From the NCBI GenBank assembly GCA_964410905.1, contig CAYPIR010000003.1:79986-143985 (forward strand): 64,000 nt of DNA, read 5' to 3'. This document shows, piece by piece, positions 9,122 through 48,638 of this stretch; the first letter of the stretch is position 1; each line of letters begins with the position of its first letter. Both the position numbers and the translations under genes were made by a program. Below the pieces are notes generated by a model. That model had not been told where the DNA came from, ran no database searches, and saw only the letters and a program-made list of their open reading frames with translations. The DNA is from an uncultured bacterium (lineage in GTDB: Bacteria; Omnitrophota; Omnitrophia; Omnitrophales; Aquincolibacteriaceae).

Positions 9122-9430
9122 TTATCGTTCAAATGGATCTTCCGCGCTAAGCTCCTGCGTAACAGGCTGATGCTCTATAAAAAGTTCATAAGCGCGCAAA
9201 ACTTCCTGTTGAACATAATCCTTAAACTCATTCGTAAGAGGATGCGCCACATCTCTGTAGTCATCGCCTTTCACTTTACGCGACGGCATTACAACAAAAA
9301 GACCTTTTGAACCATCTAAAATTTTCAAACCTCTGACAACAAAACATTGATCAAAAACAATATTGGCAAAAGCTAAAAGCTTACTGTCTCTGTGCGTTTT
9401 TGGGAAAATGCGAACTTCTGTAATCTTCAC
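9122..9430 (-). CDS. spoVG: septation protein SpoVG
   Basis: 102 aa. MKITEVRIFPK...KLLAFANIVFDQCFVVRGLKILDGSKGLFVVMPSRK...DVAHPL, a canonical SpoVG. Confidence 0.85.
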   Translation of the reverse strand: MKITEVRIFPKTHRDSKLLAFANIVFDQCFVVRGLKILDGSKGLFVVMPSRKVKGDDYRDVAHPLTNEFKDYVQQEVLRAYELFIEHQPVTQELSAEDPFER

Positions 9431-11694: not shown

Positions 11695-11771
<77 letters not shown>

Positions 11772-11783
11772 TCTACAATAAAA

Positions 11784-11818
11784 GGGGTTACGAATAAAAT
11801 CGTGACCCCTTTTTTTTC
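11784..11818 (+). terminator. rho-independent terminator after tRNA-Met
   Basis: Hairpin GGGGTTACG...CGTGACCCC followed by T8. Confidence 0.6.
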
Positions 11819-11883: not shown

Positions 11884-12858
11884 ATGAGTAATCCGAAACG
11901 GCAGCACTTTCTGCCACAGTTCTATCTGGAAGGTTTTGCATCCCAGCCCGTATCGTCCCCTCCAAAGTTCTGGTTCTATGATTTTCTGCAAGGCGCATGG
12001 GATGTCAGAACGCCCACGAACACCGCCGTTCGAAAACATTATTACACCGTCGAGAATCAAGAGAAGGAGAAGGATTACCAAGTTGAGAAATACTTCGCAG
12101 ACATTGAGGGTAAGGTGAAAGACCTCATGGTGCGAAAGCTGAATAAAGGGTTGAAACTAAAAGGGTCAGAGCATATTGCGACGCTGGCTGTTTTTGTGTA
12201 CTTAATGCGTTCACGAGTGCCTTATTTCAGAGACAAAATGGAAGCGTTCAATGTCGAAATTATTGAGCAGATGATGTCAATGATGCGTCAGCAAGCAAAA
12301 AAGAACCCCAATTATTTGAAGTGGTTAGAAGAAGACATGGAAAAGAAAACGGGGGAAAAAATGGGGTTGGATACTATGGACCCCGATGATTTTATGAATA
12401 CCGATAAGTTCAAGATTAAAATGCATCAGAATTTTCTCGTGGGGCTATGCCTTAGCCACATTGATAAAGCGGCGAGTATCATTTCTAGGATGAATTGGTC
12501 GATTATGCGAACAACGGAAGACGCCCCATTTATTACCTGTGATAACCCCTATTTTGAAATCAATCCTAAAAGCACGAGTTCTTGGGATAGAGCAGGCTTG
12601 CTAAATAAGGACATAGAAATATCACTTCCGCTTAGCTCAACGCTCTGTTTTTTCGCAAGTTGGACAAAAGCTCCCAGCTGGTTTAGTTTGGCTTCTCCGA
12701 GGCATGTTCATCAGTTCAATCTTCGGTCGATGATGGGCGCAAGAGAGTTTATTGTCGCCAGCACTAAACAATTCCCAGCGCATGAAAACTTGGAGAGAAA
12801 AACGAAAGCATTGAAGGAAGATTCAAAGTCTCCTCGAACCGCTATGACGAAGCCCTGA
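11884..12858 (+). CDS. DUF4238-family protein (candidate antiphage protein, Rst_DUF4238-like)
   Basis: 324 aa. The N-terminus MSNPKRQHFLPQFYLEGF matches the hallmark DUF4238 start (H[FY][VL]PQFYL..F). Confidence 0.65.
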   Translation: MSNPKRQHFLPQFYLEGFASQPVSSPPKFWFYDFLQGAWDVRTPTNTAVRKHYYTVENQEKEKDYQVEKYFADIEGKVKDLMVRKLNKGLKLKGSEHIATLAVFVYLMRSRVPYFRDKMEAFNVEIIEQMMSMMRQQAKKNPNYLKWLEEDMEKKTGEKMGLDTMDPDDFMNTDKFKIKMHQNFLVGLCLSHIDKAASIISRMNWSIMRTTEDAPFITCDNPYFEINPKSTSSWDRAGLLNKDIEISLPLSSTLCFFASWTKAPSWFSLASPRHVHQFNLRSMMGAREFIVASTKQFPAHENLERKTKALKEDSKSPRTAMTKP

Positions 12859-13083
12859 TAGCACGCATAGCCACGTTTCCAGCCCATTTTGGACCCAGCT
12901 CCAACACCTATCACCAAACGCAAAACATAAGCAAAACGAGGCTAAAACGAAGCGATAAAGCAATTAGAGCTGGAGGAAAGTCAGGAGGGGCTTGATTCAA
13001 GCTTAATTAAGCTTGCACTTAGTATGTTTGAGGAGATAATACTCTTGGGTTTCTAACCATCGAAAGCAGAAAGGGGTCCGCAT

Positions 13084-13356
13084 ATGTCTATCGAAATACC
13101 AATGTCTGAGCGTTCCAAAAAATACGGCTATGTTTTTTGGGGGAAAAGAGCCGATTCCCAAATCGAATCTCTGTTGAAAGAAAAACAAAAAATCAGTGTG
13201 AAATTTAATGGCGTAGACTTAGGAGAAAAAAATATAGATTGGAAGCATCGCCGTATCTCTCTTGGGTGGACGCAAACAAGAAGTTTGCCGAATAAAAAAG
13301 CGTCATTTTTTTTAACCGTATCAAAGGATAATTGGCTAAACATAAAAACGGTATGA
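13084..13356 (+). CDS. hypothetical small protein (90 aa) overlapping the methyltransferase start
   Basis: An ORF only. It overlaps the start of the downstream methyltransferase gene by 25 nt. No recognisable motif. Confidence 0.3.
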   Translation: MSIEIPMSERSKKYGYVFWGKRADSQIESLLKEKQKISVKFNGVDLGEKNIDWKHRRISLGWTQTRSLPNKKASFFLTVSKDNWLNIKTV

Positions 13357-15551
13357 ACGTTACAGAAAATGTAGAAATAGCCTGCCCCAAATTATTCCCT
13401 ATTCCTGAAGAATCCATACACCGCATTGTTGATGAAGGGATGCTTCAGTATGAAGCGTCAGTGTCTGGACTCAAGGAAAGGTATCGCAGGGGTGAGACTT
13501 CACATACTGGGCAAGTATGGTGGGCAAGACGACCGCATTCCGCCATGCGGGCGTTGGTTTTTGCAGCGTTAAGCCAAAACGTTTCAAACGAAGCCGTGCA
13601 AATCATGGCAACCCTTGCTAACTGCGAAGCTCCCTCAAATGAAGTCTTAAAACGTGCTGAGGAAATAATCTCTTCTGGTGGTGTTCCCAAATTATTAGAC
13701 ATATTCGGTGGTGGAGGAACCATAGCTTCAGAAGCTGCAAGGATTGGGGCGAAAGCGTATTCGTGTGATGTGAATGAATTAGCCTGCTACATCCAAAGAA
13801 CGAATCTTACATATTCGCAACTTTTGAAGCAGGATGAGCTTTTCGCCTTAATCCAAAATTCTGGAGAGCGCATATTAAATAACTTAACTCAACTAACGAG
13901 AGATGTCTTCCCTCCAGCAAAGAGCATGATTGGAGGCGGGGGTAACCTGTTTTCCGAAGATGTGCAACCACTTGCATATCTATGGAGCTACGCTCGGACA
14001 TGTTCTAAATGTCAGTATAAGTTCTTGCTAATAAAGCGTCCGTGGCTTTCCAAAAAGAGAGAGCGAAAAACCGCATTTAGATTGAAGGATGATTTTGAAT
14101 CAAATGCGCAAACAGTGGAGATAATCGAAACCGATGATTCTTACGAGTTTATAAGTAATTGGAGCGGGCGAAATGGCATTGTCACATGTCCTAAATGCAA
14201 AACTATTCATGATGGCAATAAAATATCTGACTTGGAAGATTGCTTAATAGGAATAATTGTTAAAACGAAAAAGGGTAAATCTTTTTTAACGCCTGAGGAA
14301 ACCAGCTATCAATGCCCTTCATTGAATTACATGAAAGAAAAGGAAGCCAAGCTGCTAGAGAGTCTTGGGAAAAATCTGCCCGAAACAAAACTGCCTAAAT
14401 GGTCTGGCATCGTAAACCCTGCGTTGTATGGCATAGAAGAGCATAAAGATTTATTAAATCAGAGACAAAGAATCTTCCTTTTAGCGTTAATGAAGGAGAT
14501 TAAAGACGAATACAAAGTAATCGTTAAGAAACATGGCGTAGGGATAGCTAAAAGCGTTGTAGCTTTTCTCTCAGGTCTTGTTGACCAAGCTGTTGATTGG
14601 AATTGCAGATTATCAATGTGGATTTCTCAAAATGAACAAGTTGGACGAGCGCTGTGCGGACCAGGGCTTCCAATGTATTGGGACTATGTCGAAATAGACG
14701 GTGTTAGAAAAGGACCCGCAAACTTATGGGACAAGTTGGAACGAATTAGCAAAGGTGCGAAATCAATAGGTGGTTTTACGCACAAACCAGAGGTGAGTTT
14801 AGCGCCTGCTCAAAAACTTCCTTTTCCTAAAAACACCTTTGATGCAGTGGTCACTGACCCTCCCTACTATGACAACATCTATTACAGTATTTTGGCTGAT
14901 TGTATTTATCCATGGAAAAGAATGCTTTTGGAGGATATTGAGGTAGAACTTTTTTCTAACAGAAAAACCTCCAGTGAAAAAGAGCTTGTTGCCTCCACAT
15001 TTCGGAGCGGAACACCCGAAAAGGCTCACGGCGATTATTGCGTCGAACTTGCAAAGGCAATCAATGAAGCGGAAAGGGTCTTAAAGAAGAATGGAGTTTT
15101 TTGCTTTATATATAGCCATAGCTCTTCGAAAGGATGGGATGCGTTGATTCAGGCGTTCAGACCCAGCAATTTTTTCGTAACGAGCGTTCAGCCGTTAAGC
15201 ATAGAACGAAAAGAAAGACCAAGGGCAATGACGTCCCTTGCCGTCAATACATGTTTAACTTTTGTTGCGCATAAATCTAATGTCAGGAAAGGCGAAGTCA
15301 CCATAAAAGAGATTTTGAAAAACATTGAAAGCATCCGTGATAATTTCATGAAGTCTTTAACTTCATCGGGGTGGGAAGAAAGCGACGTAGCATTAGCTAT
15401 TTTTGCAAATGGCATTGGATTGTTAACGAATTTCAATCAAGTTAAGCGGGGCGAGGAAATTATTTCCAACGAAACTTGTATAGAGGCTATCGAAGCGAAA
15501 ATCCAAGAAAAGTTTCCTGAATTTAAGATACAAAAAAGAGGCTCGCTCTAG
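13332..15551 (+). CDS. DNA methyltransferase, Zn-ribbon-containing (DUF1156/COG1743-like, DPPY motif)
   Basis: 739 aa. The N-terminal ...HTGQVWWARRPHSAMRALVFAAL resembles the DUF1156 WWARRP motif. Motif I-like FGGGGTIASEAARIGAKAYSCDVN, CxxC...CxxC Zn-ribbons (CSKCQYKF...CPKCKTIHDG) and the catalytic DPPYYDNIYYS are present. Confidence 0.7.
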   Translation: MAKHKNGMNVTENVEIACPKLFPIPEESIHRIVDEGMLQYEASVSGLKERYRRGETSHTGQVWWARRPHSAMRALVFAALSQNVSNEAVQIMATLANCEAPSNEVLKRAEEIISSGGVPKLLDIFGGGGTIASEAARIGAKAYSCDVNELACYIQRTNLTYSQLLKQDELFALIQNSGERILNNLTQLTRDVFPPAKSMIGGGGNLFSEDVQPLAYLWSYARTCSKCQYKFLLIKRPWLSKKRERKTAFRLKDDFESNAQTVEIIETDDSYEFISNWSGRNGIVTCPKCKTIHDGNKISDLEDCLIGIIVKTKKGKSFLTPEETSYQCPSLNYMKEKEAKLLESLGKNLPETKLPKWSGIVNPALYGIEEHKDLLNQRQRIFLLALMKEIKDEYKVIVKKHGVGIAKSVVAFLSGLVDQAVDWNCRLSMWISQNEQVGRALCGPGLPMYWDYVEIDGVRKGPANLWDKLERISKGAKSIGGFTHKPEVSLAPAQKLPFPKNTFDAVVTDPPYYDNIYYSILADCIYPWKRMLLEDIEVELFSNRKTSSEKELVASTFRSGTPEKAHGDYCVELAKAINEAERVLKKNGVFCFIYSHSSSKGWDALIQAFRPSNFFVTSVQPLSIERKERPRAMTSLAVNTCLTFVAHKSNVRKGEVTIKEILKNIESIRDNFMKSLTSSGWEESDVALAIFANGIGLLTNFNQVKRGEEIISNETCIEAIEAKIQEKFPEFKIQKRGSL

Positions 15552-16426
15552 CCCTTATTCCACTTAGTCTGCTTCTCTTTTATCGTGTCTATTTTTTGCT
15601 GAATTTTTTGTGAATCCAAAAGCATGGCTTGCAGCTCTTCTTTTGTCAGAGACAGAATTTTCTTTTTCTCTGTTTCCCAGTAGCCAGCCTCTTTGTTTGC
15701 TTGTGAGTTTGCATGCTGCCGAGCCTTTTCAATAAATCGCTCCAAATCTGATTTGCTTGCTCCGATGCAACGGCATAGAGCTTCCTCTACTTTTGACCAA
15801 TATAAATCGCCCGAAATCGCAGAGCCTGATTTTCGAATTTCAGAGGATGTGTTCCAAAGCGCTTCATAATTAAATTTATTTGGATTTTTTGTACTTAAAA
15901 TGAACTGCAAATGTATGTATGTCAAAAGCGTTGCATTTGTTTGCACTGCTTCTCTGTAAAGCCTCGAATCATTCCCAGGAAATTGACCGAGTGGACCGAC
16001 CAAGCAAGCGTAGTCCGCTGATGCTTTCTTTCTCCAGCCATCCAAAGGTTCTATTTTGTAATCTTTGGGATTTAGAGCTGTTCTGCTGAGCCTAAATGCT
16101 TTGCCATCCGCAACGATTCTGTAAGAGCCTTTCTTTTCAGCGACTACGTCGGCGTAATCCGCTCTTTCTTCGCACAATCTAGCTTCTAAACCCATTTGTT
16201 CGAGACATCCAAAAATCAGAATGTCGCAGTACTTTGCATACATTTTTTCTTCGGTTGAGTCATGGGAAAAGATTTCAGGTATAAATCCAGCTACTGCAAG
16301 ATGGTCGTTCAGTTGGCTAATAGATAACTCACCGAGGGAAGATAGCAGATTTTTAACACGTGTTGGAAAGTCCACATCGCCCACACAAGCCTTCCCAATA
16401 AACTCAACTATGTTTTCGTGGTTCAT
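15548..16426 (-). CDS. type II restriction endonuclease, HindIII family
   Basis: 292 aa. ...KYCDILIFG...ADVVAEKKGSYRIVADGKAFRLSRTALNPKDYKIEPLDGWR... aligns with HindIII (as recalled from memory: ...AGDIVLAKAF...GDVIALSKEFNYGLVADAKSFRLSRTAKNQKDFKVKALSEWR...), including the PD-(D/E)xK residues. Convergent with the methyltransferase, overlapping it by 4 nt. Confidence 0.65.
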   Translation of the reverse strand: MNHENIVEFIGKACVGDVDFPTRVKNLLSSLGELSISQLNDHLAVAGFIPEIFSHDSTEEKMYAKYCDILIFGCLEQMGLEARLCEERADYADVVAEKKGSYRIVADGKAFRLSRTALNPKDYKIEPLDGWRKKASADYACLVGPLGQFPGNDSRLYREAVQTNATLLTYIHLQFILSTKNPNKFNYEALWNTSSEIRKSGSAISGDLYWSKVEEALCRCIGASKSDLERFIEKARQHANSQANKEAGYWETEKKKILSLTKEELQAMLLDSQKIQQKIDTIKEKQTKWNKG

Positions 16427-16450
16427 AATGTTTGCTCATCATGCCTTTGG

Positions 16451-17097
16451 TTAAATGGGGAGTTCTCTTGTGAGTATCGGCGCATGGTAGATTTTTTTAA
16501 CAATAATTGTCCCCACCTTCAGAACAAAGCTCCTCCGTTTTTGGTCATCGTTGACGCCGAATATAGGCACCCCAGAGATGATAGGACAGACGGATTTGAG
16601 TAATTCGCTCAGGTTTTTTTTGACGACTCTCGAATACAAGTGCCGAGCGTTACTCAGGGGTTTACTCGTTTTACTCAGCTTTCTTGGCGTACTTCCGAAT
16701 GTATAGGACATCTCGACGGAACACCTGAATGTAGCTGTAGCGGAGGAAGTCGGGATAGCTGAGTTTGCGATTTTTTCGCAAGGTGTTTTTGATGAGTCTC
16801 GAATACAGCTGGAAAGAGTTTCGCAAGAGGTTGACCGATTTTCGCAAGTGTTCTTGGCGTACTTCTGAAGGCATAGGACATGCCGACGGAACACCAGAAT
16901 GTTGTCGTAGCGGAGGACGTAGTAATCGCAAAAGATAGCAATTTCGGGGTGTCTGCTACGGTGGTGTCTCGAATACAGGGGAACGGAGTTGCTACGCTCG
17001 AAGCCCGTTTTTCTACGATGATAATGGATGCTCCGCCAACGATAAAAAACAGTCCGAGCTGAGACCAGTTTGATTTAATCCGCAGCACAAGCATCAC
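16451..17097 (-). pseudogene. possible frameshifted repeat-containing gene (two overlapping minus-strand ORFs encoding related peptide repeats)
   Basis: The ORFs 16675..17097 and 16451..16894 are in different frames. Each encodes a related ~34-aa segment (SATTTFWCSVGMSYAFRSTPRTLAKIGQPLAKLF versus SATATFRCSVEMSYTFGSTPRKLSKTSKPLSNAR). The first ORF starts with a hydrophobic, signal-like N-terminus. Confidence 0.3.
16611..17050. repeat. tandem direct repeat, ~169-170-bp unit, ~2.6 copies at ~85% identity
   Basis: Anchor 'tctcgaatacag' at 16628, 16797 and 16967. Anchor 'ttcttggcgtacttc' at 16681 and 16851. Confidence 0.8.
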
Positions 17098-17182
17098 CCT
17101 TCCATTTCGATAGCCCTTGCAGCAGTGTGTTCGTGGTCTACCATTACATTAACAAAACAACCACGAAACAAAAGGGGGCAAG

Positions 17183-18265
17183 ATGAACGAAGATGAAGCA
17201 AGAAGACTATTAACCCTGCCAATAACCCAAATTCAACGGCGCATCATGGAAAAGAACAAGACCGCAGCCGTTACGGCAGACCAAATGACGCTTCTTCTTG
17301 CGCTTGAGAAGGCTGGCAAGAACCGCAAGGGCATGAAAGATTGGCTTGAGCTTGGCATCAGCATGAACGCTCCGCCAGGCGAATACTACCTGACCTATCA
17401 GCACAAGGTTTCCATCTGGAAATCGGCTCTCCAGAAATACATCAGGCGTGGAATGACGGAAAAGGCATTGGGGGCAGGCAAAGTCCTGTTCAGGATGGCG
17501 CAGGAGCAAGCGGTACGACGAATGAAAATTATTATCACAGAGGACGTGTTCAGTGCGGTCGAAGCACTTCGGTTTTTCGATGGGATGATGGGACTCGATG
17601 ATTTTCTCTCCATCGTCAAAACGGTCGCTGATGCCCCAAAGGACAAGAGTTGTTGCGCCGTAGCAGACAAGCTGGCTGTAAGTGATTCGAGCTGGCTAAT
17701 GGCAAATTCTGAGCAATTACGGGGATATTTAGAAGCGAAAACGAAAAGCGATATTGTTTGCGCAGAAATAATGGGCTTGGTCTGGCAGAAAGAATGGGGG
17801 CGCATTCAAAACATCTTGGGGAATGACCCCGTGGTGCGCCAGTGCATCCAGCGAGCCTCCGAAGGCACATACTTCAAAGGCGATACCATCGTCCTCATGG
17901 TTGCTGCCATCCGCTACTTATACGGCGAACACCTGCTCAAGAACCTGAAACTGTCTCTGGTTGATGCGGATAGCGTTGCTGACATGAGGTTAAGTGAGAT
18001 TGATTGGTTTTGCACGGATTTCCACACGCCAGTTGGACGGGTCGTACTGGACGAGTTTTTAATAAGGCATCGGGGTATTGACCGTAGAGAACTTGAAACG
18101 TCTTGGTTTTTTTCAGAGAGCGCCAAGCTGAGCGACAATCAGGTAGCTGGCACTTGCGAAAAAGGGCAATTTAATCGGGAGCTGTGGATAAGTTACGGCA
18201 AAGAGATAGAAGGGATGGTGAAAGAATACCTTCTAAGCAGATTCAAGATAGCGCAATACGATTAG
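17183..18265 (+). CDS. hypothetical protein (360 aa), island cargo
   Basis: A long ORF with codon-like composition and no family I can name. Contains ...IDWFCTDFHTPVGRVVLDEF... Confidence 0.5.
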   Translation: MNEDEARRLLTLPITQIQRRIMEKNKTAAVTADQMTLLLALEKAGKNRKGMKDWLELGISMNAPPGEYYLTYQHKVSIWKSALQKYIRRGMTEKALGAGKVLFRMAQEQAVRRMKIIITEDVFSAVEALRFFDGMMGLDDFLSIVKTVADAPKDKSCCAVADKLAVSDSSWLMANSEQLRGYLEAKTKSDIVCAEIMGLVWQKEWGRIQNILGNDPVVRQCIQRASEGTYFKGDTIVLMVAAIRYLYGEHLLKNLKLSLVDADSVADMRLSEIDWFCTDFHTPVGRVVLDEFLIRHRGIDRRELETSWFFSESAKLSDNQVAGTCEKGQFNRELWISYGKEIEGMVKEYLLSRFKIAQYD

Positions 18266-18278
18266 GGGGTGGCTGAAG

Positions 18279-18905
18279 ATGAAGAGAACAGCGAAGGCGG
18301 TTATCTATGCCAGATGCAGTACGGACGAGAGCCGACAGGATACGGACGTTCAGTTGAAAGAGATTCGGCGATATGCGGAGGCATATGGATTTGATTATGA
18401 CGAGGTTTCAGAATACGGAAGCGGATACAAAGGCGAACAGCCCAAGCTCGACGAGGTTATCGAGAAAATTAAGCTCGGTCACTATTCCACCCTGCTCGTC
18501 TACTCTCTGGACAGGTTTTCCCGACAGCATCCCAAAAAGGTTAATGCTCTCTTGGACCAAATCGTCTACGACTACCACTGCCGATTCATTTCACTCAAGG
18601 AAGGCATTGATTCGACCAACGAAATGGTTTGGCACGTCATACGCCCGCTGTTCAGTTATTTTGCCAACGTCTTCTCCAAGCAGCTTAGCGAGAAAATCAG
18701 AGCTGGCATCAAGAACAAGAAGGAGAAAAACCTTTATCGGGGCGGTCGCCCTGAGAAACTCGTCAATCCTGAACGGCTTAAAGCAATTCTGACCGAACAT
18801 GGACGTCTTGCGTTACGCCCCCTGACCGTCCGATATAATGCCGACCTCTCCAAGAAGGAGCAAGTAAGCCACCAAACCATCCGTAAAGCCCTCGCCCTGC
18901 TGTAA
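18279..18905 (+). CDS. serine recombinase (resolvase/invertase family)
   Basis: 208 aa. AVIYARCSTDESRQDTDVQ places the catalytic Ser in the YAR.ST context. ...SLDRFSR... is also present, with a C-terminal HTH-like tail. Confidence 0.85.
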   Translation: MKRTAKAVIYARCSTDESRQDTDVQLKEIRRYAEAYGFDYDEVSEYGSGYKGEQPKLDEVIEKIKLGHYSTLLVYSLDRFSRQHPKKVNALLDQIVYDYHCRFISLKEGIDSTNEMVWHVIRPLFSYFANVFSKQLSEKIRAGIKNKKEKNLYRGGRPEKLVNPERLKAILTEHGRLALRPLTVRYNADLSKKEQVSHQTIRKALALL

Positions 18906-19036
18906 AAATAACTCCCCCCAAAAGCCTCCTCTACGTTACCCCCGCTAAAACGCTGTAAAGCAAACATCTCTTTTTAGAACAAGGGAGCCGATATAAACTA
19001 CACCTGAAAATTGCTTATCAACGAGGTGGTGAAAAC

Positions 19037-19780
19037 GTGGCGAAGAAAAAAAAGGCAAAACTTGCGAAAGAATTAGACCTGCTAATTCCTATGTATAAAT
19101 GGGAATTCTTACGTAGGAATAAGGATTACATCAAGGATTGTGAGAGCTGGACCAAACGCACTCGTAATCAATGGAACAAGAGAGAAATTGTTCTCGGTTA
19201 TAAGTTTAACGGCAAAATATCCGATTGGGGAAAGCCACACACTAAGGAAGCGATGACGGCAACGCTTGCTTACTGTCGTAGGCATTTCGAAGAATGGCAG
19301 TCTGAACGATTCGATTCATGGCGAAAGTACAAAGTAAAATGGGCAATAAACCTTCCTTTTAATCCTAACCTGTCGTACGTTCCATTTTTTATGGAGATAG
19401 CTCCTTTTAACATCATTACTGAACCACCCATGTCTAGCGATGGGGGGAATGATTTTCTTCTGGAAAAAGGGACGAGTTCTTTATTGCAAGTTAATTGGGA
19501 AGCTAACGTCGAAGACTTAAATCTTTCTTTCGAGAGAATCCTCCAGTTAAAAAAAATTCTTCTGAAAAACAAGCGGAAAGCCCACACATCCCATACTCAT
19601 TTTGATGTATATCACGATGCTTTAATTGTTTGGGACTTGAAGCAGGAAGAGAAAACTTATGCTGACATGCAGGATAGCAAATGGTTCACCCCCAACCAAA
19701 AGCGCTCTTCCACTAATATCCAAGACTGTTTCCAAGTTGCGGAGAAGCTAATCAAGGGAGGCTACAAGGAAATAAGGTAA
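19037..19780 (+). CDS. hypothetical protein (247 aa) with N-terminal WEFLRRN motif; possibly a mobile-element regulatory protein
   Basis: An ORF. The motif YKWEFLRRNKDY resembles a motif I associate with ICE regulatory proteins of the DUF6499/DUF2285 type. This is a tentative recollection only. Confidence 0.45.
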   Translation: MAKKKKAKLAKELDLLIPMYKWEFLRRNKDYIKDCESWTKRTRNQWNKREIVLGYKFNGKISDWGKPHTKEAMTATLAYCRRHFEEWQSERFDSWRKYKVKWAINLPFNPNLSYVPFFMEIAPFNIITEPPMSSDGGNDFLLEKGTSSLLQVNWEANVEDLNLSFERILQLKKILLKNKRKAHTSHTHFDVYHDALIVWDLKQEEKTYADMQDSKWFTPNQKRSSTNIQDCFQVAEKLIKGGYKEIR

Positions 19781-19858
19781 CCCCCCGTCGCTCCTTTAAT
19801 GAATTTCTTATTCGGCGAGTAAAATAGTCCCCACTTTAGAAAAACGTGGGGATTTTTT

Positions 19859-20197
19859 ATGCCTGAAGATGCGAAGAAAAATGATTTGCTTGTCACCGAA
19901 GTTGAAATAATTCCTCTTAAAACCTGCAACGGACACATCGGTTTTGCATCCTTCGTTCTGAACCACCAGATTTTTATTGGTAACATTGCGATTTATTCTC
20001 GCCCTAATGGTAGCGGGTTGAGATGCGTTTTCCCCACGAAGCGACTTCCGACAGGCGGAGCTATCCAGCTCGTTCATCCCATCACGAAAGAGGCTGGGCT
20101 TCTAATCGAAAAAGCGGTCTTTGAACAATACAAAAAGGTGGTCATAAAAAGTGGCGAAGAAAAAGAGAATCGAAATCTTTCTTGGCGACAAGGCTAA
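19859..20197 (+). CDS. SpoVG-family protein (island-borne paralog)
   Basis: 112 aa. ...LLVTEVEIIPLKTCNGHIGFASFVLNHQIFIGNIAIYSRPNGSGLRCVFPTKRLPTGGAIQLVHPI... follows the SpoVG pattern (V..I......AFASI.FD..FV...I.VI.G.NGLFV.MPS....G...D.AHPI). Confidence 0.6.
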   Translation: MPEDAKKNDLLVTEVEIIPLKTCNGHIGFASFVLNHQIFIGNIAIYSRPNGSGLRCVFPTKRLPTGGAIQLVHPITKEAGLLIEKAVFEQYKKVVIKSGEEKENRNLSWRQG

Positions 20198-21047: not shown

Positions 21048-21228
21048 GCAAACGAAATTGCTTACAGTCCAACAAGTAGCAGAAATTTTGAGCGTTCAGA
21101 CCAGCTGGGTCTACGAGCAAGCGAGGAAGAATAAAATTCCACACGTTCGATTGGGAAAGTATCTCCGTTTCAAAATGGATGAAATTCACCAGTATGTGGA
21201 AGCGAAAAAGACCGAATCTTCTTCCTGA
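21040..21228 (+). CDS. excisionase/AlpA-family helix-turn-helix DNA-binding protein
   Basis: 62 aa. LLTVQQVAEILSVQTSWVYEQARKNKIPHVRLGKYLRFKMDEI is a Xis/MerR-superfamily HTH. Lies immediately upstream of the integrase. Confidence 0.6.
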   Translation: MNEQTKLLTVQQVAEILSVQTSWVYEQARKNKIPHVRLGKYLRFKMDEIHQYVEAKKTESSS

Positions 21229-21278
21229 CAGTAAGGGGCGGATTAAAATCAAAAAAAAAAGAAGGTTGATAATGCATT

Positions 21279-22478
21279 ATGCTCGGCTCAATTAGAACAA
21301 GGTTCTCTAAGCGTGACCCGAAAAAGCCTCTCTATTATCTCTGTTATAGGATTGGGAAAAAACAGGTGTGGGAGGCTGCGGGTTCGCATAAAAAAACAGC
21401 TGAGAGAAAATTAACAGAAACAATCAATGCGCTCAATGACGGGACGTACGTTAAGGTCAAAGAAATATCATTTGCTGAATTCGCTCGTGAATGGCTTCAG
21501 ATTTATGCGTCAGTACATGTCAAGGAATCCACTTTCCGCTCCTATCGAAGCGTTATTACGCAGCATCTGATTCCAGACTTGGGGCATTACCCTGTGACAT
21601 TGATTACCCCTCACGTTGTTCAACAGTTTCTCTCTGCGGTTCTTAAAAAAACTACTAAACGAAAAAAACCGACGACTACAAAGACCGCAAACAATATGCT
21701 CAAGCTAATGAAAACCGTCTTCAAATATGCGTGCAAATGGGGTTACATGAGGTTTAATCCTGCCGAAGACATTGAATCATTTCCCGTTTCACACGAAGAA
21801 ATGCATTTTCTTGAGCCAGAAGACATCAGGGCGTTGCTTAATGCCTCTCTTGAGCCGTTCCGAACGCTTTTTTTGACAGCAGTGATGACGGGAATGAGAC
21901 GTGGTGAGCTGCTTGCGCTGCAATGGGGGGATATTGACTGGAACAGCAGCAGGATTTTTGTTCGGCGGACTCTTTTTTGGTTCAGTTGCGAAGAAGCCAG
22001 TGAAAGAAAGCATGATGAGCGATGGAAGTTTGGAACACCCAAAACAAAGAACTCTTATCGAACGATACCAATGTCACCTGAATTGAAAAAGGCGCTTCAG
22101 ATTCACCACATTAAATCGCCAGTCAACGAACATGGCTTGGTTTTTTGCAGCAAAGAAGGAAAGCCGATTGACCCCGATAATATGGTGAAGCGTGAATTTC
22201 ATTACGCTCTCACGACAGCAGGATTGCGGAGGATTCGTTTTCATGACTTACGGCATACGTGCGCAGCCGTGCTAATTGCAGCTGACTTTAATCCAAAATT
22301 TATTCAAATGTTTCTGGGACATGCATCTATCCAAACGACAATGGACCGCTATGGTCATCTTTTCAAAATTGATAATGAAAAAGTGGGTGACCGAATCGAC
22401 CAAACGGTTTTTGAAAAATCTAACAAAAATCTAACAGAATCAGCCGAGCCATCAAAATCAACCCAAATGCAAGATTGA
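21279..22478 (+). CDS. tyrosine-type site-specific integrase
   Basis: 399 aa. The C-terminal catalytic region shows ...FHDLRHTCAAVLIAAD...LGHASIQTTMDRYGHL, the R..H.R.Y pattern. Confidence 0.9.
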   Translation: MLGSIRTRFSKRDPKKPLYYLCYRIGKKQVWEAAGSHKKTAERKLTETINALNDGTYVKVKEISFAEFAREWLQIYASVHVKESTFRSYRSVITQHLIPDLGHYPVTLITPHVVQQFLSAVLKKTTKRKKPTTTKTANNMLKLMKTVFKYACKWGYMRFNPAEDIESFPVSHEEMHFLEPEDIRALLNASLEPFRTLFLTAVMTGMRRGELLALQWGDIDWNSSRIFVRRTLFWFSCEEASERKHDERWKFGTPKTKNSYRTIPMSPELKKALQIHHIKSPVNEHGLVFCSKEGKPIDPDNMVKREFHYALTTAGLRRIRFHDLRHTCAAVLIAADFNPKFIQMFLGHASIQTTMDRYGHLFKIDNEKVGDRIDQTVFEKSNKNLTESAEPSKSTQMQD

Positions 22479-22554: not shown

Positions 22555-22599
22555 CTCATAACCCAAAGGTCACTGGTTCAAATCCAGTCCCCGCTACCA
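22555..22599 (+). repeat. attR: displaced 3' half of tRNA-Met
   Basis: ctcataacccaaaggtcActggttcaaatccagTccccgctacca compared with the tRNA copy (G and C at the two capitalised positions). The base change preserves T-stem pairing as A:U. Confidence 0.75.
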
Positions 22600-22611
22600 G
22601 TTACGAGAAAA

Positions 22612-22647
22612 GGGGTTGCGTAAAAAAACGCAGCCCCTTTATAATTT
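22612..22647 (+). terminator. terminator-like hairpin after attR
   Basis: GGGGTTGCG...CGCAGCCCC followed by a T-rich run. Mirrors the terminator after the intact tRNA. Confidence 0.4.
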
Positions 22648-46497: not shown

Positions 46498-47415
46498 TCA
46501 TCGCCTTTCATTGATCCCTGATTCACGAAAAAAGGCGGGGTTGTTTTTCCAACCGGGAATCGGTTTACACCAAAGCTGTAAAAAAACTTTCCGCCCTAAA
46601 AACTTTTGTATATCAAGCCGTGCCGCAGTTCCAATTTGCTTGATTTTTTCTCCGCCGCGGCCAATCACAATCGCCTTTTGCGAATCACGCTCAACTACAA
46701 TGGTCGCGTGAATCTTAGTGATTTTTTCTTCTTCTAAAAATTCATCAACGCGGATTGTTCCGTCATACGGCAACTCCTCTCCTAAAAAATGATAGAGTTT
46801 TTCACGTATCATTTCGCTCACATGAAATCTAACATTTTGATCTGAAATTTGATCCTCAGGATAAATCAATTCTCCTTCCGGAAGATAGCGGAGAGTTTGC
46901 TCAATAAGCACGTTTATATTTTCTCCAGACTTCGCGCTTATGGGAATAAACTCCTTGAACTCAAACGCTTTTTGATAGGAATCTAAAGCAACCACGAGAT
47001 CGTCTTTTGAAAATCTATCGATTTGATTTACCACCAAAAAAACGGGCGTTTTAATTTCACGAATCCAAGCAAGAATTGTTTTTTCAATATCGCCTATCGG
47101 TTTTGGATAAACGAGCCAATACAAAATATCCGCGTCGGAAAATGTTCGCTGGACATCGCGGACCATTCCCGCTCCAAGTTCGTCTTTGGGACGATGAACG
47201 CCGGGCGTATCTAGAAAAATAATTTGCCCAGAAAGTTCCCCGGCAATTTTTTTATTTTCCGGTATCGTCAAAATACCGCGTATTACATCCCTCGTGGTTT
47301 GCGGTTTAGCGGACGTTCCCGCCAGCTTTTCACCGACAAGTTTATTTAGAAGCGTCGATTTCCCGACATTTGGGCGGCCAATAATGGCAACATGCCCAAC
47401 TTTAGTTTTACTCAC
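46498..47415 (-). CDS. era: GTPase Era
   Basis: 305 aa. G1 motif GRPNVGKSTL, G3 motif DTPG, plus a C-terminal KH domain. Confidence 0.9.
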   Translation of the reverse strand: MSKTKVGHVAIIGRPNVGKSTLLNKLVGEKLAGTSAKPQTTRDVIRGILTIPENKKIAGELSGQIIFLDTPGVHRPKDELGAGMVRDVQRTFSDADILYWLVYPKPIGDIEKTILAWIREIKTPVFLVVNQIDRFSKDDLVVALDSYQKAFEFKEFIPISAKSGENINVLIEQTLRYLPEGELIYPEDQISDQNVRFHVSEMIREKLYHFLGEELPYDGTIRVDEFLEEEKITKIHATIVVERDSQKAIVIGRGGEKIKQIGTAARLDIQKFLGRKVFLQLWCKPIPGWKNNPAFFRESGINERR

Positions 47416-48638
47416 TGAATCTCTCTTTCATCTAAAACAACGCCTTCCGCCACTTCGCCTTTATTTTCTTGGTTAGTTAAAAATGGATCGATTAAAAACG
47501 AACCTATCTGCGACAATCCCTTGGCAACATATACCGGCGACAATGCTGTTAATTTAACGGCTTCCACAACGCCTGATTTTGTTTTTTGATACAACGCTTT
47601 TTGGATTGCCTTTGAAAACGCACTAAACATTCTAAACTGCGGGTCGCAAATATCGCCATCGACCTCTATTTCGAGCGTTACAACTCTTCGTTCTTCTAAA
47701 AGCAATTGTACAGCGCTCATTGGATATTTCGCTATTTTTTGCGTCAAACTAGGCGTCTTAAACTTCATATTCCAAAGAGTCAAAAGATGCTCTGAATCCA
47801 GCTCGCGTTCAACGCATCGCAAATGCGAATACAAATCAAATGTCCCTTGCTTCACGTTTCCCTGAATGCCATTCACCAAAAAGTTATATTCTTCTATCGA
47901 ACCGCCAAGAATGCTTACTTTAAAATCAAAATTGGCTCCGTCAGCAAATTGGCATTCTCCTCCGCCTGTCAATTTAGCGGGATTTTTCTTGCCAAACAAC
48001 GCTTCAAATTCCATTGTTTCAGAAAAAACAGGGCTTGCAAAATCCGAAATAAAATCAAACCCTTTCCATTCTCCGCGTATTTGATGAACAAGCCAGTGCT
48101 GTGAAGGCGTTTCTCTATAGTCATCAAAAATTATAGTCCCATTTTCCAACGTTAACTTATCAATCCGGAGACGCCATTTTTTTTCGCCCGTGTTATCTTC
48201 AGGAGGCTTTATTCTTCGCGCGCCCGCAGGATCGCTTTCGCTAATTCCCATAAAATCGTACCAACGAAAAACATTATTCTCCAGTCCACGAACGCCTATA
48301 TAACTTTCAATGGCAAAAACCGCTTCCTTCACTTTCACATCTCTAATCAAAATCATTTTATTTCGCAAAACGGACATATCTAGTTGGCATTCAACATTTT
48401 TAACGCTGAAGTGATCACGGCGTTTAAAATCCGGCTGGTTTAGCGCTTCTAAAAATTTCAGCCCAAGTCTTCCTGTGATGGGATCAATCCAAAGGCCATC
48501 AATATGAACGGGCAGGTCAAAAGCTTTACTCATTAAAGCTTCCACGACAGGCTCGGCGACAATACCTATCGCGCGCGGATAAAACCAAACAATCACGCCC
48601 AATATCAAGACTAAAAACCATTTTACAAACGTCTTCAT
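47412..48638 (-). CDS. membrane-anchored hypothetical protein (possibly AsmA-like/DUF748)
   Basis: 408 aa. An N-terminal TM helix followed by a long periplasmic-type domain. The family assignment is tentative. Confidence 0.45.
   Translation of the reverse strand: MKTFVKWFLVLILGVIVWFYPRAIGIVAEPVVEALMSKAFDLPVHIDGLWIDPITGRLGLKFLEALNQPDFKRRDHFSVKNVECQLDMSVLRNKMILIRDVKVKEAVFAIESYIGVRGLENNVFRWYDFMGISESDPAGARRIKPPEDNTGEKKWRLRIDKLTLENGTIIFDDYRETPSQHWLVHQIRGEWKGFDFISDFASPVFSETMEFEALFGKKNPAKLTGGGECQFADGANFDFKVSILGGSIEEYNFLVNGIQGNVKQGTFDLYSHLRCVERELDSEHLLTLWNMKFKTPSLTQKIAKYPMSAVQLLLEERRVVTLEIEVDGDICDPQFRMFSAFSKAIQKALYQKTKSGVVEAVKLTALSPVYVAKGLSQIGSFLIDPFLTNQENKGEVAEGVVLDEREIQ

What the first reader, a model, noticed from the sequence alone, without database searches (positions are those of the whole stretch)
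13332..16426. Type II restriction-modification pair with an atypical partner: HindIII-family endonuclease plus a 739-aa Zn-ribbon DUF1156/COG1743-type methyltransferase
The minus-strand ORF 15548..16426 aligns along its length with HindIII as I recall that sequence, including the PD-D/ExK region and the FRLSRTA.N.KD[FY]K block. It converges on, and overlaps by 4 nt, a large methyltransferase that carries a WWARRP-type N-terminal motif (DUF1156-like), motif I FGGGGT, two CxxC Zn-ribbons and a catalytic DPPY. Canonical HindIII methyltransferases are small (~300 aa) gamma-class enzymes. A COG1743-type enzyme is more often discussed with DUF499/DUF3780 partners in defence islands. Pairing it with a HindIII-like nuclease looks like an unusual combination, or a specificity variant.
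Basis: partly seen in the sequence, partly recalled or inferred. Interest (0 to 1): 0.6.

Follow-up and report, generated by a model that had tools for sequence, protein, structure and literature searches.

The report
HindIII-type restriction system with B3-fold regulator
This is a real restriction-modification gene pair of the HindIII kind that recurs in many microbes, so the pairing is ordinary, but it carries an overlooked third gene for a small DNA-binding protein that probably controls the system by reading the system's own target sequence in its promoter.

Summary
The 292-aa ORF is a full-length HindIII-family nuclease (Pfam 6.5e-65; 3e-34 to solved HindIII). It overlaps tail-to-tail by 4 nt with a large DUF1156/DPPY/Cys4 methyltransferase. 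The "unusual pairing" reading does not hold. The same pairing occurs in at least 21 loci from many phyla, the paired nucleases mostly cluster together, and a REBASE-derived PADLOC Type II methyltransferase model matches the enzyme end to end (632 bits). It is not an Hma/BREX-type DUF1156 protein.

Its model (pLDDT 95) is a B3-type DNA-binding pseudobarrel; all top 24 PDB matches have this fold. One homologue is fused to the N-terminus of a DUF1156 methyltransferase. In all 11 loci with this gene, AAGCTT sites lie in its promoter: a pair 10-12 bp apart in 10 loci (window: AAGCTTAATTAAGCTT, 12999-13014), usually overlapping the -35. None of 13 loci lacking the gene has any.

Best reading: an AAGCTT-specific three-gene module on a 10.8-kb tRNA-Met island. 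Its B3-fold protein autoregulates the methyltransferase operon through cognate-site operators, probably sensing methylation. DNA binding and methylation sensitivity are inferred, not shown.

The parts
12999..13014 (.). Paired cognate sites AAGCTT-AATT-AAGCTT, a perfect 16-bp palindrome. Proposed operator of the small-gene/methyltransferase operon.
   Evidence: Sequence; sites listed. An equivalent AAGCTT pair (10-12 bp start-to-start) lies upstream of the small gene in 10 of 11 loci and a single site in the 11th; none lies upstream of 13 methyltransferase loci that lack the small gene. In 9 loci there are 17 sites in 1,170 nt against 0.29 expected, P = 1.3e-24.
13012..13040 (+). Putative sigma-70-type promoter: -35 CTTGCA (13012-13017, overlapping the second AAGCTT), 17-nt spacer, -10 GATAAT (13035-13040).
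   Evidence: Best hexamer match, 8 of 12. Homologous loci have stronger matches (TTGACT/TTGACA, 17 nt, TATAAT-like, 9-11 of 12) with the -35 starting 4 nt into an AAGCTT site. This is a consensus match only; the transcription start is not mapped.
13084..13356 (+). Conserved 90-aa gene for a stand-alone B3-fold (DNA-binding pseudobarrel) protein. Proposed AAGCTT-binding regulator.
   Evidence: Homologues at 36-47% identity in other loci. 110 representative clusters at E<=1e-3, nearly all about 90 aa. AlphaFold model pLDDT 95.4, pTM 0.84. Foldseek PDB top 24 hits are all B3 domains, best LlaJI.R1-N with TM 0.70. Natural fusion to a DUF1156 methyltransferase in P0298. No Pfam or PHROG family matches.
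13353..15551 (+). DUF1156-type N6-adenine-type DNA methyltransferase with a Cys4 zinc-ribbon insert between motif I (FGGGGT) and motif IV (DPPY). 732 aa from ATG 13353; the longest ORF starts at TTG 13332 (739 aa).
   Evidence: Pfam N6_N4_Mtase and DUF1156. PADLOC MTase_II PDLC03233 at 632 bits, residues 17-739 on model positions 21-731 of 731. Conserved motifs in 31 homologues. ATGA overlap with the small gene's stop.
15548..16426 (-). HindIII-family PD-(D/E)XK Type IIP restriction endonuclease, 292 aa, convergent with the methyltransferase gene and overlapping it by 4 nt.
   Evidence: Pfam RE_HindIII 6.5e-65. PDB HindIII 2E52/3A4K at 3e-34 over residues 19-283. Invariant E51, D93, D107, K109 and the FRLSRTA block. 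PADLOC REase_II 3e-48.
11695..11812 (+). tRNA-Met (CAT) gene (11695-11771). Its 3' half plus the downstream hairpin (11727-11812) forms the left direct repeat (attL) of the island.
   Evidence: ARAGORN, Rfam tRNA 62.8 bits, direct repeat D2.
22555..22640 (+). Partial tRNA-Met copy, 85% identical to 11727-11812; the right direct repeat (attR) of the island.
   Evidence: Direct repeat D2. No complete tRNA is found there. The GC-skew sign flips across about 12000-22000.
21279..22478 (+). Tyrosine integrase of the 10.8-kb integrative island that carries the R-M module.
   Evidence: Pfam Phage_integrase 3.6e-30 plus N-terminal SAM-like and central domains. ORF.

Best explanation
The locus is a three-gene Type IIP restriction-modification module of HindIII specificity (AAGCTT), carried on a 10.8-kb integrative island at tRNA-Met.

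1. The 292-aa PD-(D/E)XK nuclease cleaves unmethylated AAGCTT. This is inferred from family membership and conserved catalytic residues.
2. The 732-aa DUF1156-type methyltransferase protects the host by N6-methylating an adenine in AAGCTT. This is inferred; the DPPY motif is conserved.
3. The 90-aa B3-fold protein is translationally coupled to the methyltransferase. It binds the two AAGCTT sites, one helical turn apart, that overlap the -35 region of the operon promoter, and so autoregulates itself and the methyltransferase. Because the operator is made of the system's own target sequence, the methyltransferase can modify it. Operator occupancy, and hence methyltransferase synthesis, would then report how completely the cell's DNA is methylated.
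4. The methyltransferase operon and the nuclease gene end face to face with no terminator space. A fall in operon transcription should therefore also relieve collision or antisense interference on the nuclease gene, giving the usual order of methylation first, restriction later.

Shown here: gene identities, conservation, the B3 fold, the fusion, and the strict co-occurrence of the small gene with promoter AAGCTT sites. Inferred: DNA binding by the small protein, the direction of the methylation effect, transcriptional interference, and AAGCTT as the cleaved and modified site.

My confidence differs by step: about 0.9 that this is an R-M pair of this lineage, about 0.8 that the site is AAGCTT, about 0.6 that the small protein binds the AAGCTT pair and regulates the operon, and about 0.4 that binding is sensitive to methylation. 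The overall figure given reflects the regulator step.
For: R-M identity.

Recurrence of the M/R pairing as a lineage: 15 of 80 genome loci, more, and clustering of the partnered nucleases. None of 76 distant DUF1156 loci (22-30% identity) has a HindIII neighbour.

The small gene is real and linked to the methyltransferase:
- Conserved at 36-47% identity, with 110 clusters.
- Its stop lies within -20 to +8 nt of the methyltransferase start in all 10 operons.
- A natural N-terminal fusion to a DUF1156 methyltransferase exists (P0298).

DNA-binding fold: pLDDT 95.4. The top 14 and top 24 PDB matches from two independent models are all B3 domains, several solved with DNA.

Operator:
- AAGCTT is present upstream of the small gene in 11 of 11 loci, as a pair 10-12 bp apart in 10, amid unrelated spacer and flank sequence.
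- It is the only palindromic hexamer that recurs as a pair (8 of 9 loci).
- 17 sites observed against 0.29 expected, P = 1.3e-24.
- 0 of 13 methyltransferase loci lacking the small gene have a site. Fisher exact is about 4e-7 (my arithmetic, 1/C(24,11)).
- The -35 hexamer overlaps a site in most loci.
- In L172 the small gene and its AAGCTT pair accompany a canonical small-methyltransferase HindIII system, so the pair tracks the small gene and the AAGCTT specificity, not the methyltransferase type.

Precedents: the LlaJI promoter holds two LlaJI sites that were used as gel-shift probes, and LlaJI recognises its site through a B3 domain (PMC1459862, PMC12707154). Promoter-methylation control is known in CfrBI, AhdI and LlaDII.

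Face-to-face geometry: M/R gaps of -40 to +55 nt.

AAGCTT is depleted in the window to 0.33 of expectation.
Against: - No experiment shows DNA binding, methylation or cleavage.
- The individual fold-match E-values are weak (0.016-0.8, TM 0.5-0.7), and no sequence model of B3, EcoRII-N or BfiI-C matches any of 90 family members.
- The window's own promoter match is mediocre (8 of 12), and the stricter scan found no promoter there.
- In L172 the small gene is not upstream of the methyltransferase, so regulating the methyltransferase cannot be its only role.
- L020 has only one site.
- More than half of the large-methyltransferase loci lack the small gene, so it is dispensable.
- AAGCTT depletion in the host is not specific: it ranks 9th of 64 palindromes, and many others are also depleted.
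- The 11 loci may share ancestry, so they are not fully independent, although the spacers and flanks have diverged completely.
Confidence: 0.6

Rival explanations
1. The paired AAGCTT sites are a pure promoter-methylation switch of the CfrBI/AhdI/LlaDII type, acting directly on RNA polymerase. The small B3-fold protein would then do something other than transcriptional control. For example, it might occupy unmethylated AAGCTT sites genome-wide to shield them from the nuclease during establishment, or act in trans as an effector of the nuclease or a targeting helper of the methyltransferase.
For: - A site overlaps the -35 hexamer in most loci, so methylation alone could alter polymerase binding, as reviewed for CfrBI.
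- In L172 the small gene lies downstream of a complete R-M pair and cannot control their transcription from its own promoter.
- B3 domains in EcoRII, BfiI, NgoAVII and LlaJI serve as recognition or effector modules of nucleases rather than as repressors.
- The N-terminal fusion to the methyltransferase would also fit a targeting role.
Against: - The sites occur only where the small gene occurs (11 of 11 against 0 of 13), and in L172 they sit in front of the small gene, not the methyltransferase. That is what autoregulation predicts.
- Methyltransferases of the same subfamily work with HindIII-type nucleases without the small protein, so it is not needed for targeting.
Confidence: 0.2
2. One reading: an atypical, possibly novel combination or a specificity variant. 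In this view a defence-island COG1743/DUF1156 methyltransferase was recently recruited to a HindIII-like nuclease, perhaps with a recognition sequence other than AAGCTT.
For: - Characterised HindIII isoschizomer systems have methyltransferases of about 300 aa (LlaCI on pAW153: 296 aa, PF01555).
- Most HindIII-family loci (about 55 of 80) have the small partner.
- The enzyme shares the DUF1156 N-terminus and core with HmaB (171 bits, partial).
Against: - The pairing recurs in at least 21 loci across many phyla, and the partnered nucleases mostly cluster together.
- An existing Type II methyltransferase model fits end to end.
- A halobacterial survey lists AAGCTT among REBASE-predicted sites for an 'Adenine_DNA_methylase' arCOG (PMC6471742). 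The link of that arCOG to COG1743 is from memory.
- The conserved AAGCTT operators argue for AAGCTT specificity.
Confidence: 0.08
3. The methyltransferase belongs to an Hma-like or BREX-related multi-gene defence system, and its adjacency to the nuclease is incidental.
For: Partial matches to HmaB (9e-51), DUF1156_MTase and PglX models in PADLOC. DUF1156 proteins are HmaB in Hma systems and the methyltransferases of BREX-related systems (PMC11232893, PMC12839542). The neighbouring DUF4238 gene matches a PADLOC candidate-defence model.
Against: - NCBIfam DUF1156_antiphage scores 74 bits against a cut-off of 1000.
- No DUF3883, DUF499 or BREX genes were found among the island ORFs scanned.
- The protein is about 220 aa shorter than HmaB models (967-973 positions).
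- None of 76 distant DUF1156 loci has a HindIII neighbour, whereas close relatives nearly always do.
- The 4-nt overlap and conserved tail-to-tail geometry argue against chance adjacency.
Confidence: 0.03
4. The module is a decaying or silent remnant on an old island, with the nuclease or methyltransferase inactive, so no regulation operates.
For: - No strong promoter was found for the nuclease gene.
- Its upstream region is filled with degenerate ~170-nt repeats.
- attR has diverged to 85% identity.
- Related loci show decay: a split methyltransferase in L166 and no nuclease next to the methyltransferase in L084.
Against: - All three ORFs are intact and full length with every family-invariant residue.
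- The operator palindrome is perfect.
- AAGCTT is depleted in the flanking host DNA.
Confidence: 0.1

Closest known systems
HindIII R-M system and its isoschizomer systems (LlaCI on pAW153; E. coli/Klebsiella small-plasmid systems)
   Same: The nuclease belongs to the same family (PF09518; 3e-34 to solved HindIII) with the same catalytic block. The recognition site is very probably the same, AAGCTT. It is a two-enzyme Type IIP system.
   Different: The partner methyltransferase is a ~730-aa DUF1156/zinc-ribbon enzyme with motif I before motif IV and a ~380-aa insert between them. The usual partner is a ~300-aa PF01555 enzyme. The genes are convergent and overlap. An extra B3-fold gene and a cognate-site operator are present.
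HmaB of the Hma system, and the DUF1156 methyltransferases of BREX-related systems
   Same: DUF1156 N-terminal helical domain with WWARRP, an N6-adenine-type core with DPPY, and a large insert.
   Different: It is about 220 aa shorter and matches those models only partially. Its partner is a classical Type II nuclease, not helicase/ATPase (DUF3883/DUF499) or BREX proteins. It is best described by a separate REBASE-derived Type II methyltransferase model.
LlaJI (R1.LlaJI N-terminal B3 domain; operon promoter with two LlaJI sites)
   Same: A B3-fold module reads the system's own recognition sequence, and the operon promoter holds two cognate sites (PMC1459862, PMC12707154). It is the best structural match of the small protein (6C5D, TM 0.70).
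   Different: In LlaJI the B3 domain is fused to an McrB-like GTPase restriction subunit, the site is asymmetric (GACGC) and the methyltransferases are m5C enzymes. Here the B3 protein is a free-standing 90-aa product (or is fused to the methyltransferase, as in P0298), and the site is a palindrome.
Controller (C) proteins of Type II R-M systems (for example C.Csp231I, C.AhdI, C.Esp1396I)
   Same: A small dedicated protein encoded inside the R-M module, probably autoregulatory, with an operator made of two adjacent sites overlapping its own promoter.
   Different: C proteins are helix-turn-helix proteins that bind C-boxes unrelated to the recognition sequence, and they usually precede and activate the nuclease gene. 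This protein has a B3 pseudobarrel fold, its operator is the recognition sequence itself, and it precedes the methyltransferase gene.
[quoted passage not shown]
   Same: A DNA-binding module is attached to the methyltransferase N-terminus and acts at the methyltransferase promoter. The fusion protein P0298 has exactly this layout. EcoRII repression depends on the methylation state of its sites.
   Different: The domain in those enzymes is helix-turn-helix, and they are m5C enzymes. Here the module has a B3 fold and is usually a separate, translationally coupled polypeptide.
Promoter-methylation control (CfrBI, AhdI, LlaDII)
   Same: Cognate recognition sites are embedded in the methyltransferase promoter, allowing feedback from methyltransferase activity.
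   Different: Those systems need no extra reader protein for this step. Here the sites occur only together with the B3-fold gene.

Membership tests
HindIII restriction endonuclease family (PF09518) | Full-length match to the family profile above the curated cut-off | tested here: met
   219.6 bits against a cut-off of 25.3; profile positions 2-283 of 285.
HindIII restriction endonuclease family (PF09518) | PD-(D/E)XK catalytic residues and the FRLSRTA recognition/catalytic block aligned with solved HindIII | tested here: met
   Alignment to 2E52 at 3.2e-34. E51, D93, D107, K109 and F111-A117 are invariant in 32 sequences. Assigning these residues as catalytic rests on general PD-(D/E)XK knowledge.
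HindIII restriction endonuclease family (PF09518) | Cleavage of A^AGCTT | not testable with these tools
   Indirect support only: conserved AAGCTT operators and AAGCTT depletion to 0.33 of expectation.
DUF1156 / COG1743-type zinc-ribbon adenine methyltransferase | DUF1156 N-terminal domain (PF06634) above the cut-off | tested here: met
   25.1 bits against 24, marginal. Homologues score 28-44 bits. WWARRP is invariant.
DUF1156 / COG1743-type zinc-ribbon adenine methyltransferase | AdoMet-binding motif I, catalytic DPPY and a Cys4 zinc ribbon | tested here: met
   FGGGGT, DPPYYDN and C217/C220/C279/C282 are invariant in 31 homologues. N6_N4_Mtase scores 33.5 bits.
REBASE-type Type II methyltransferase family (PADLOC MTase_II PDLC03233) | End-to-end match to the family model | tested here: met
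   3.6e-190, 632 bits; residues 17-739 on model positions 21-731 of 731.
Hma system (HmaB) | Full-length HmaB / DUF1156_antiphage match | tested here: not met
   NCBIfam NF042963 scores 73.9 bits against a cut-off of 1000. PADLOC HmaB matches only residues 289-724 on a 973-position model.
Hma system (HmaB) | Neighbouring HmaA (DUF3883 helicase) and HmaC (DUF499 ATPase) | tested here: not met
   No such families were found among the island ORFs scanned. The neighbour is the nuclease.
R-M controller (C) proteins | Xre-type helix-turn-helix fold | tested here: not met
   The model is a beta-rich pseudobarrel. All top fold matches are B3 domains. No HTH Pfam hit.
R-M controller (C) proteins | Small autoregulatory gene inside an R-M module with a two-part operator at its own promoter | tested here: inconclusive
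   The gene position and the paired sites overlapping the -35 fit this. Binding and regulation were not tested.
B3-type DNA-binding pseudobarrel (plant B3, EcoRII-N, BfiI-C, NgoAVII, LlaJI.R1-N) | Fold similarity to solved B3 domains | tested here: met
   The top 24 of 306 Foldseek PDB matches are all B3 domains. Best is 6C5D with TM 0.70 and probability 1.00; E-values 0.016-0.8. A shallower model gave the same result.
B3-type DNA-binding pseudobarrel (plant B3, EcoRII-N, BfiI-C, NgoAVII, LlaJI.R1-N) | Sequence-level membership in a described B3-type family | tested here: not met
   None of 90 family members matches any B3, EcoRII-N or BfiI-type Pfam model, even at E<=1.
B3-type DNA-binding pseudobarrel (plant B3, EcoRII-N, BfiI-C, NgoAVII, LlaJI.R1-N) | Sequence-specific DNA binding | not testable with these tools
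   Inferred from co-occurrence with the AAGCTT pairs.
Promoter-methylation-controlled R-M systems (CfrBI/AhdI/LlaDII type) | Cognate recognition site(s) inside the methyltransferase promoter | tested here: met
   AAGCTT overlaps the -35-like hexamer in the window and in most homologous loci. Promoters are predicted, not mapped.
Promoter-methylation-controlled R-M systems (CfrBI/AhdI/LlaDII type) | Promoter activity changes with methylation of those sites | not testable with these tools
   Needs reporter assays or in vitro transcription.
tRNA-integrated genomic island | Tyrosine integrase plus direct repeats derived from the tRNA 3' end | tested here: met
   Phage_integrase 3.6e-30. The 86-nt repeat 11727-11812 / 22555-22640 is 85% identical. 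tRNA-Met. GC-skew flip.

The most novel reading that the evidence does not exclude
The 90-aa protein would define a new class of restriction-modification controller. It is a free-standing B3-fold protein whose operator is a tandem pair of the system's own recognition sites. It would therefore sense directly whether the methyltransferase has done its job, as an epigenetic feedback sensor. It would also set methyltransferase synthesis and, through face-to-face transcription, nuclease synthesis. It would be a portable cassette (gene plus operator) that serves AAGCTT-specific systems whatever their methyltransferase type.
Probability: 0.45. Interest if true: 0.7.

Novelty: new variant of a known kind. 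Interest (0 to 1): 0.55.

Why it matters
The nuclease-methyltransferase pair itself is an ordinary member of an already catalogued lineage, although that lineage seems not to have been described in papers.

The third component matters more. A 2025 review lists four ways Type II R-M systems time their enzymes: promoter methylation, HTH-fused methyltransferases, antisense transcription and HTH C proteins. It calls control by promoter methylation "apparently rarely used". A small B3-fold protein tied to operators made of the cognate site would add a fifth solution that couples a protein reader to the methylation mark.

It would also extend the B3 pseudobarrel from a module fused inside nucleases, and from plant transcription factors, to a stand-alone bacterial regulator. 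The proposal is directly testable with a 90-aa protein and a 16-bp duplex.

In practical terms, about 110 unannotated protein clusters would gain a function. The AAGCTT operators also give a sequence-only way to predict the specificity of these systems.

Tried and rejected
- **AAGCTT depletion as proof of specificity.** AAGCTT is at 0.33 of expectation (z about -4.3) but ranks only 9th of 64 palindromic hexamers, and many palindromes are depleted. I kept it as consistent evidence, not as discriminating evidence.
- **Organism identity.** Cluster look-up, contig look-ups and an Rfam scan gave no name. Only an untitled 145-kb NCBI contig and Logan runs SRR11845625/23 carry these genes.
- **BbrI.** I recalled that Bordetella bronchiseptica BbrI is a HindIII isoschizomer, which would link locus L024 to AAGCTT. 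No paper in the library supports this, so I did not use it as evidence.
- **HindIII structure paper.** It is not in the library, so catalytic residues are given by alignment position only.
- **Structure prediction with locus-derived sequences.** Modelling was done first with 2 sequences and then with 90.
- **Small-protein searches.** The word-indexed search found only 2 relatives; exhaustive HMMER found 110. The 90-sequence alignment was too diverse for a locus scan; the 9-sequence alignment gave 2 viral-collection loci.
- **Repeats upstream of the nuclease gene.** Rfam and TRF found nothing in the ~170-nt repeats.
- **Promoter scan.** The strict sigma-70 scan found no promoter at the operator or upstream of the nuclease gene. 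The promoter proposed here rests on a looser match plus comparison with other loci.
- **Chance adjacency of M and R.** Considered and rejected on the basis of recurrence and the conserved tail-to-tail geometry.

Full report
**1. Checking the observation**

The + strand ORF is 13332..15551 (739 aa from a TTG). The - strand ORF is 15548..16426 (292 aa). They converge and share 4 nt.

The proposed HMM tests all pass:
- The 292-aa protein matches Pfam RE_HindIII over the whole profile (6.5e-65, 219.6 bits against a cut-off of 25.3).
- The large protein matches N6_N4_Mtase (33.5 bits against 26.7).
- It also just passes DUF1156 (25.1 bits against 24).

The nuclease aligns with the solved HindIII structure (2E52/3A4K) at 3e-34 over residues 19-283, including the VAD-x-K-x-FRLSRTA-N-x-KD-x-K block. 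In an alignment of 32 family members, E51, D93, D107, K109 and that block are invariant.

In 31 homologues of the methyltransferase, WWARRP, FGGGGT, four cysteines in two CxxC knuckles and DPPYYDN are invariant. Together the two knuckles make one Cys4 zinc ribbon.

**2. Is the pairing unusual? No.**

- PADLOC's REBASE-derived model MTase_II PDLC03233 (731 positions) matches the large protein end to end at 632 bits. HmaB models match only partially (171 bits), and NCBIfam's DUF1156_antiphage equivalog scores 74 bits against a cut-off of 1000. The enzyme is therefore a catalogued Type II methyltransferase type, distinct from the ~950-aa DUF1156 proteins of Hma and BREX-related systems (PMC11232893, PMC12839542).
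- Homologues at 46-51% identity are numerous. Many share contig lengths with homologues of the nuclease.
- Among the 80 best genome loci encoding a HindIII-family nuclease (579 were found), 15 have a homologue of the large methyltransferase immediately adjacent. The hosts include Planctomycetota, Chloroflexi, Bacillota, Omnitrophota, Armatimonadota, Streptomyces, Endobacter, Bordetella bronchiseptica and a Methanophagales archaeon.
- Further examples came from a metagenome contig, Anoxybacillus calidus, a 587-kb contig, a relaxase-bearing contig and a viral-collection contig.
- Conversely, none of 76 distant DUF1156 loci (22-30% identity) has a HindIII-type neighbour.
- In a neighbour-joining tree, the nucleases partnered with the large enzyme mostly cluster together.
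- The geometry is conserved: tail-to-tail, with gaps of -40 to +55 nt.

This is an established lineage of HindIII-type systems, not a one-off.

The other HindIII-family loci have one of two other partners:
- A ~300-aa PF01555 methyltransferase, co-directional and downstream. This is the majority. LlaCI on pAW153 also has a ~300-aa PF01555 partner, although there the two genes are convergent.
- A ~520-aa LexA/S24-peptidase/PF01555 fusion.

The small partners have the catalytic region first and FxGxG last. A methylome report also lists an AAGCTT methyltransferase as "II beta" (PMC5578853).

**3.

A 90-aa ORF (13084..13356) lies directly upstream of the methyltransferase. Its TGA overlaps ATG 13353 (ATGA), which is the start used in the NCBI gene call (732 aa, P0001).

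- The ORF is conserved. It is 37% identical to the equivalent gene in L002 (E 5e-24) and is present in eight loci of the first sets.
- An exhaustive HMMER search finds 110 representative clusters, almost all about 90 aa.
- In all ten small-gene/methyltransferase operons, the small gene's stop lies within -20 to +8 nt of the methyltransferase start.
- One homologue, P0298 (785 aa), is a natural fusion of this domain (residues 1-78) to a DUF1156 methyltransferase that is 41% identical to the window's along its whole length.
- No Pfam, PHROG, NCBIfam or PADLOC model matches the family.

**4. Fold of the small protein**

An AlphaFold model from two sequences had pLDDT 87. A model from 90 sequences had pLDDT 95.4 and pTM 0.84, with the same topology.

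Foldseek against the PDB returned only B3-type DNA-binding pseudobarrels at the top. They included the LlaJI.R1 N-terminal domain (6C5D, TM 0.70, probability 1.00), VRN1, ARF1, TEM1 and LEC2 bound to DNA, the R.NgoAVII B3 domain bound to DNA, and BfiI. Individual E-values are weak (0.016-0.8), so I call this a match at the fold level, not family membership.

**5. The operator**

About 70 bp upstream of the small gene's ATG, the window reads AAGCTTAATTAAGCTT (12999-13014). This is a perfect 16-bp palindrome made of two HindIII sites.

- In every other locus that has the small gene, the same thing is found amid otherwise unrelated sequence. The spacers are GACTT (twice), AATTT, GAAAC, GATTTC, GACAC, GACTC, GAAATA and GTTTT. 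L020 has a single site.
- Over nine loci there are 17 sites in 1,170 nt against 0.29 expected from the same loci (P = 1.3e-24). AAGCTT is the only palindromic hexamer that recurs as a close pair.
- None of 13 methyltransferase loci that lack the small gene has an AAGCTT within -250..+30. Eleven of 11 against 0 of 13 gives a Fisher probability of about 4e-7 (my arithmetic).
- In most loci the best sigma-70-like match has its -35 (TTGACT or TTGACA) starting 4 nt into a site, then a 17-nt spacer and a TATAAT-like -10. In the window the match is weaker: CTTGCA at 13012, 17 nt, GATAAT at 13035.
- In L172 the small gene and its AAGCTT pair follow a canonical HindIII-type nuclease (6e-106) and a 278-aa PF01555 methyltransferase. 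The gene and its sites therefore form a cassette that tracks AAGCTT specificity rather than the methyltransferase type.

**6. Mechanism**

The best-supported reading is an AAGCTT-specific Type IIP system whose methyltransferase operon is autoregulated by a B3-fold protein. That protein would bind two cognate sites, one helical turn apart, across the -35 region.

Because the operator is also a substrate of the methyltransferase, its occupancy can depend on methylation. This would give feedback from methyltransferase activity rather than from protein amount alone.

The face-to-face, terminator-less arrangement of the operon and the nuclease gene suggests that lowering operon transcription also relieves interference on the nuclease gene.

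There are precedents for each element:
- Promoter methylation in CfrBI, AhdI and LlaDII, called "apparently rarely used".
- Methyltransferases with fused N-terminal repressor domains (SsoII, Ecl18kI, and EcoRII, whose repression depends on the methylation state).
- Convergent or antisense control (EcoRI, Eco29kI) (PMC12707154).
- LlaJI, whose promoter carries two LlaJI sites and which recognises its site through a B3 domain (PMC1459862, PMC12707154).

No paper found in the library describes a free-standing B3-type regulator of an R-M system.

Shown here: gene identities, conservation, the fold, the fusion, and co-occurrence with the sites. Inferred: DNA binding, the sign of the methylation effect, and interference. 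The main rival is that the sites act as a methylation switch on their own and the small protein has another role at AAGCTT sites. L172 keeps that option open.

**7. Specificity**

AAGCTT is supported by family membership, by the operator sites, and by depletion of AAGCTT in the window: 14 observed against 41-42 expected under low-order models and 24 under a fourth-order model. Many palindromes are depleted, so this last point is weak.

A halobacterial survey lists AAGCTT among REBASE-predicted sites for an "Adenine_DNA_methylase" arCOG (PMC6471742). That fits REBASE already assigning AAGCTT to this enzyme type, but the link between that arCOG and COG1743 is from memory.

**8. Context**

The module lies on a 10.8-kb island.
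- The 3' half of tRNA-Met plus its hairpin (11727-11812) is repeated at 22555-22640 (85% identity).
- An exact 24-nt repeat lies just inside each end.
- A tyrosine integrase sits at 21279..22478.
- The GC skew flips across the island.
- The island also carries a DUF4238 gene, a small serine recombinase and a SpoVG paralogue.
- The organism could not be named.

**9. Verdict**

The claimed oddity of the pairing is not real, since the pair belongs to a recurrent, already catalogued lineage. The added value is the unannotated B3-fold gene and its cognate-site operator, which look like a new variant of R-M control. I score interest at 0.55: the pair alone is ordinary, but the regulator is surprising to specialists, rests on strong comparative evidence, and can be tested immediately.

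Noticed in passing
L004 6847-8448 (-), L008 6863-8407 (-); also L005, L009, L011, L014, L016, L017, L026: In nine loci the convergent partner of the HindIII-family nuclease is a ~515-535-aa fusion of a LexA DNA-binding domain, an S24 autopeptidase and a PF01555 methyltransferase. The hosts are mostly candidate-phyla-radiation bacteria and uncultured Gammaproteobacteria. A self-cleaving LexA-like repressor fused to an R-M methyltransferase could tie R-M expression to DNA damage. Pfam was run on two of them.
   Followed up: partly
window 16627-17135: Three degenerate ~170-nt tandem copies fill the space between the nuclease start codon and the next gene. The first two are about 76% identical and the third is weaker. 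On the - strand each ends in CTGTATTCGAGA(C/G). There is no Rfam match and TRF is silent, so the function is unknown.
   Followed up: partly
window 48521-48541: A second close pair of AAGCTT sites (15 bp start-to-start) lies inside a coding region (47412..48638, - strand), about 100 nt from its start. With 14 sites in 64 kb, about 0.06 such chance pairs are expected (my arithmetic). It could be a second target of the small protein or a coincidence.
   Followed up: no
window 11884-12858 (+): The first gene of the island is a DUF4238 protein (Pfam 3e-40). It also matches PADLOC's candidate defence model 'DUF4238-Pers' (2e-15) and an unknown-function PHROG. The island may therefore carry two defence functions.
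   Followed up: no
window 19859-20197 (+) and 9122-9430 (-): The island encodes a SpoVG-like protein (Pfam 4e-8). By eye, a SpoVG-like ORF also lies just outside the island, next to tRNA-Gln; that ORF was not scanned. The island also has a 208-aa serine recombinase (18279..18905) and three ORFs of 247-360 aa with no family.
   Followed up: no
L172 1602-3699 (IMG/VR contig of 172 kb): A canonical HindIII-type system: a 313-aa nuclease, then a 278-aa PF01555 methyltransferase, then AAGCTT-GTTTT-AAGCTT and an 88-aa B3-fold gene, all on one strand. Here the small gene cannot control the upstream R and M genes from its own promoter, so its role may be wider than methyltransferase control.
   Followed up: partly
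L166 1689-3254; L084: Signs of decay in relatives. In L166 the DUF1156 methyltransferase behind the small gene is split into 247-aa and 181-aa ORFs, by a frameshift or an assembly error. In L084 a 47%-identical methyltransferase has no HindIII-type gene downstream.
   Followed up: no
L167, L168 (Logan contigs from SRR11845625 and SRR11845623): Short-read assemblies of the same organism break just past the MgtC-like gene, close to the island's right end (attR). This could reflect the repeat, or a mixed population with and without the island.
   Followed up: no
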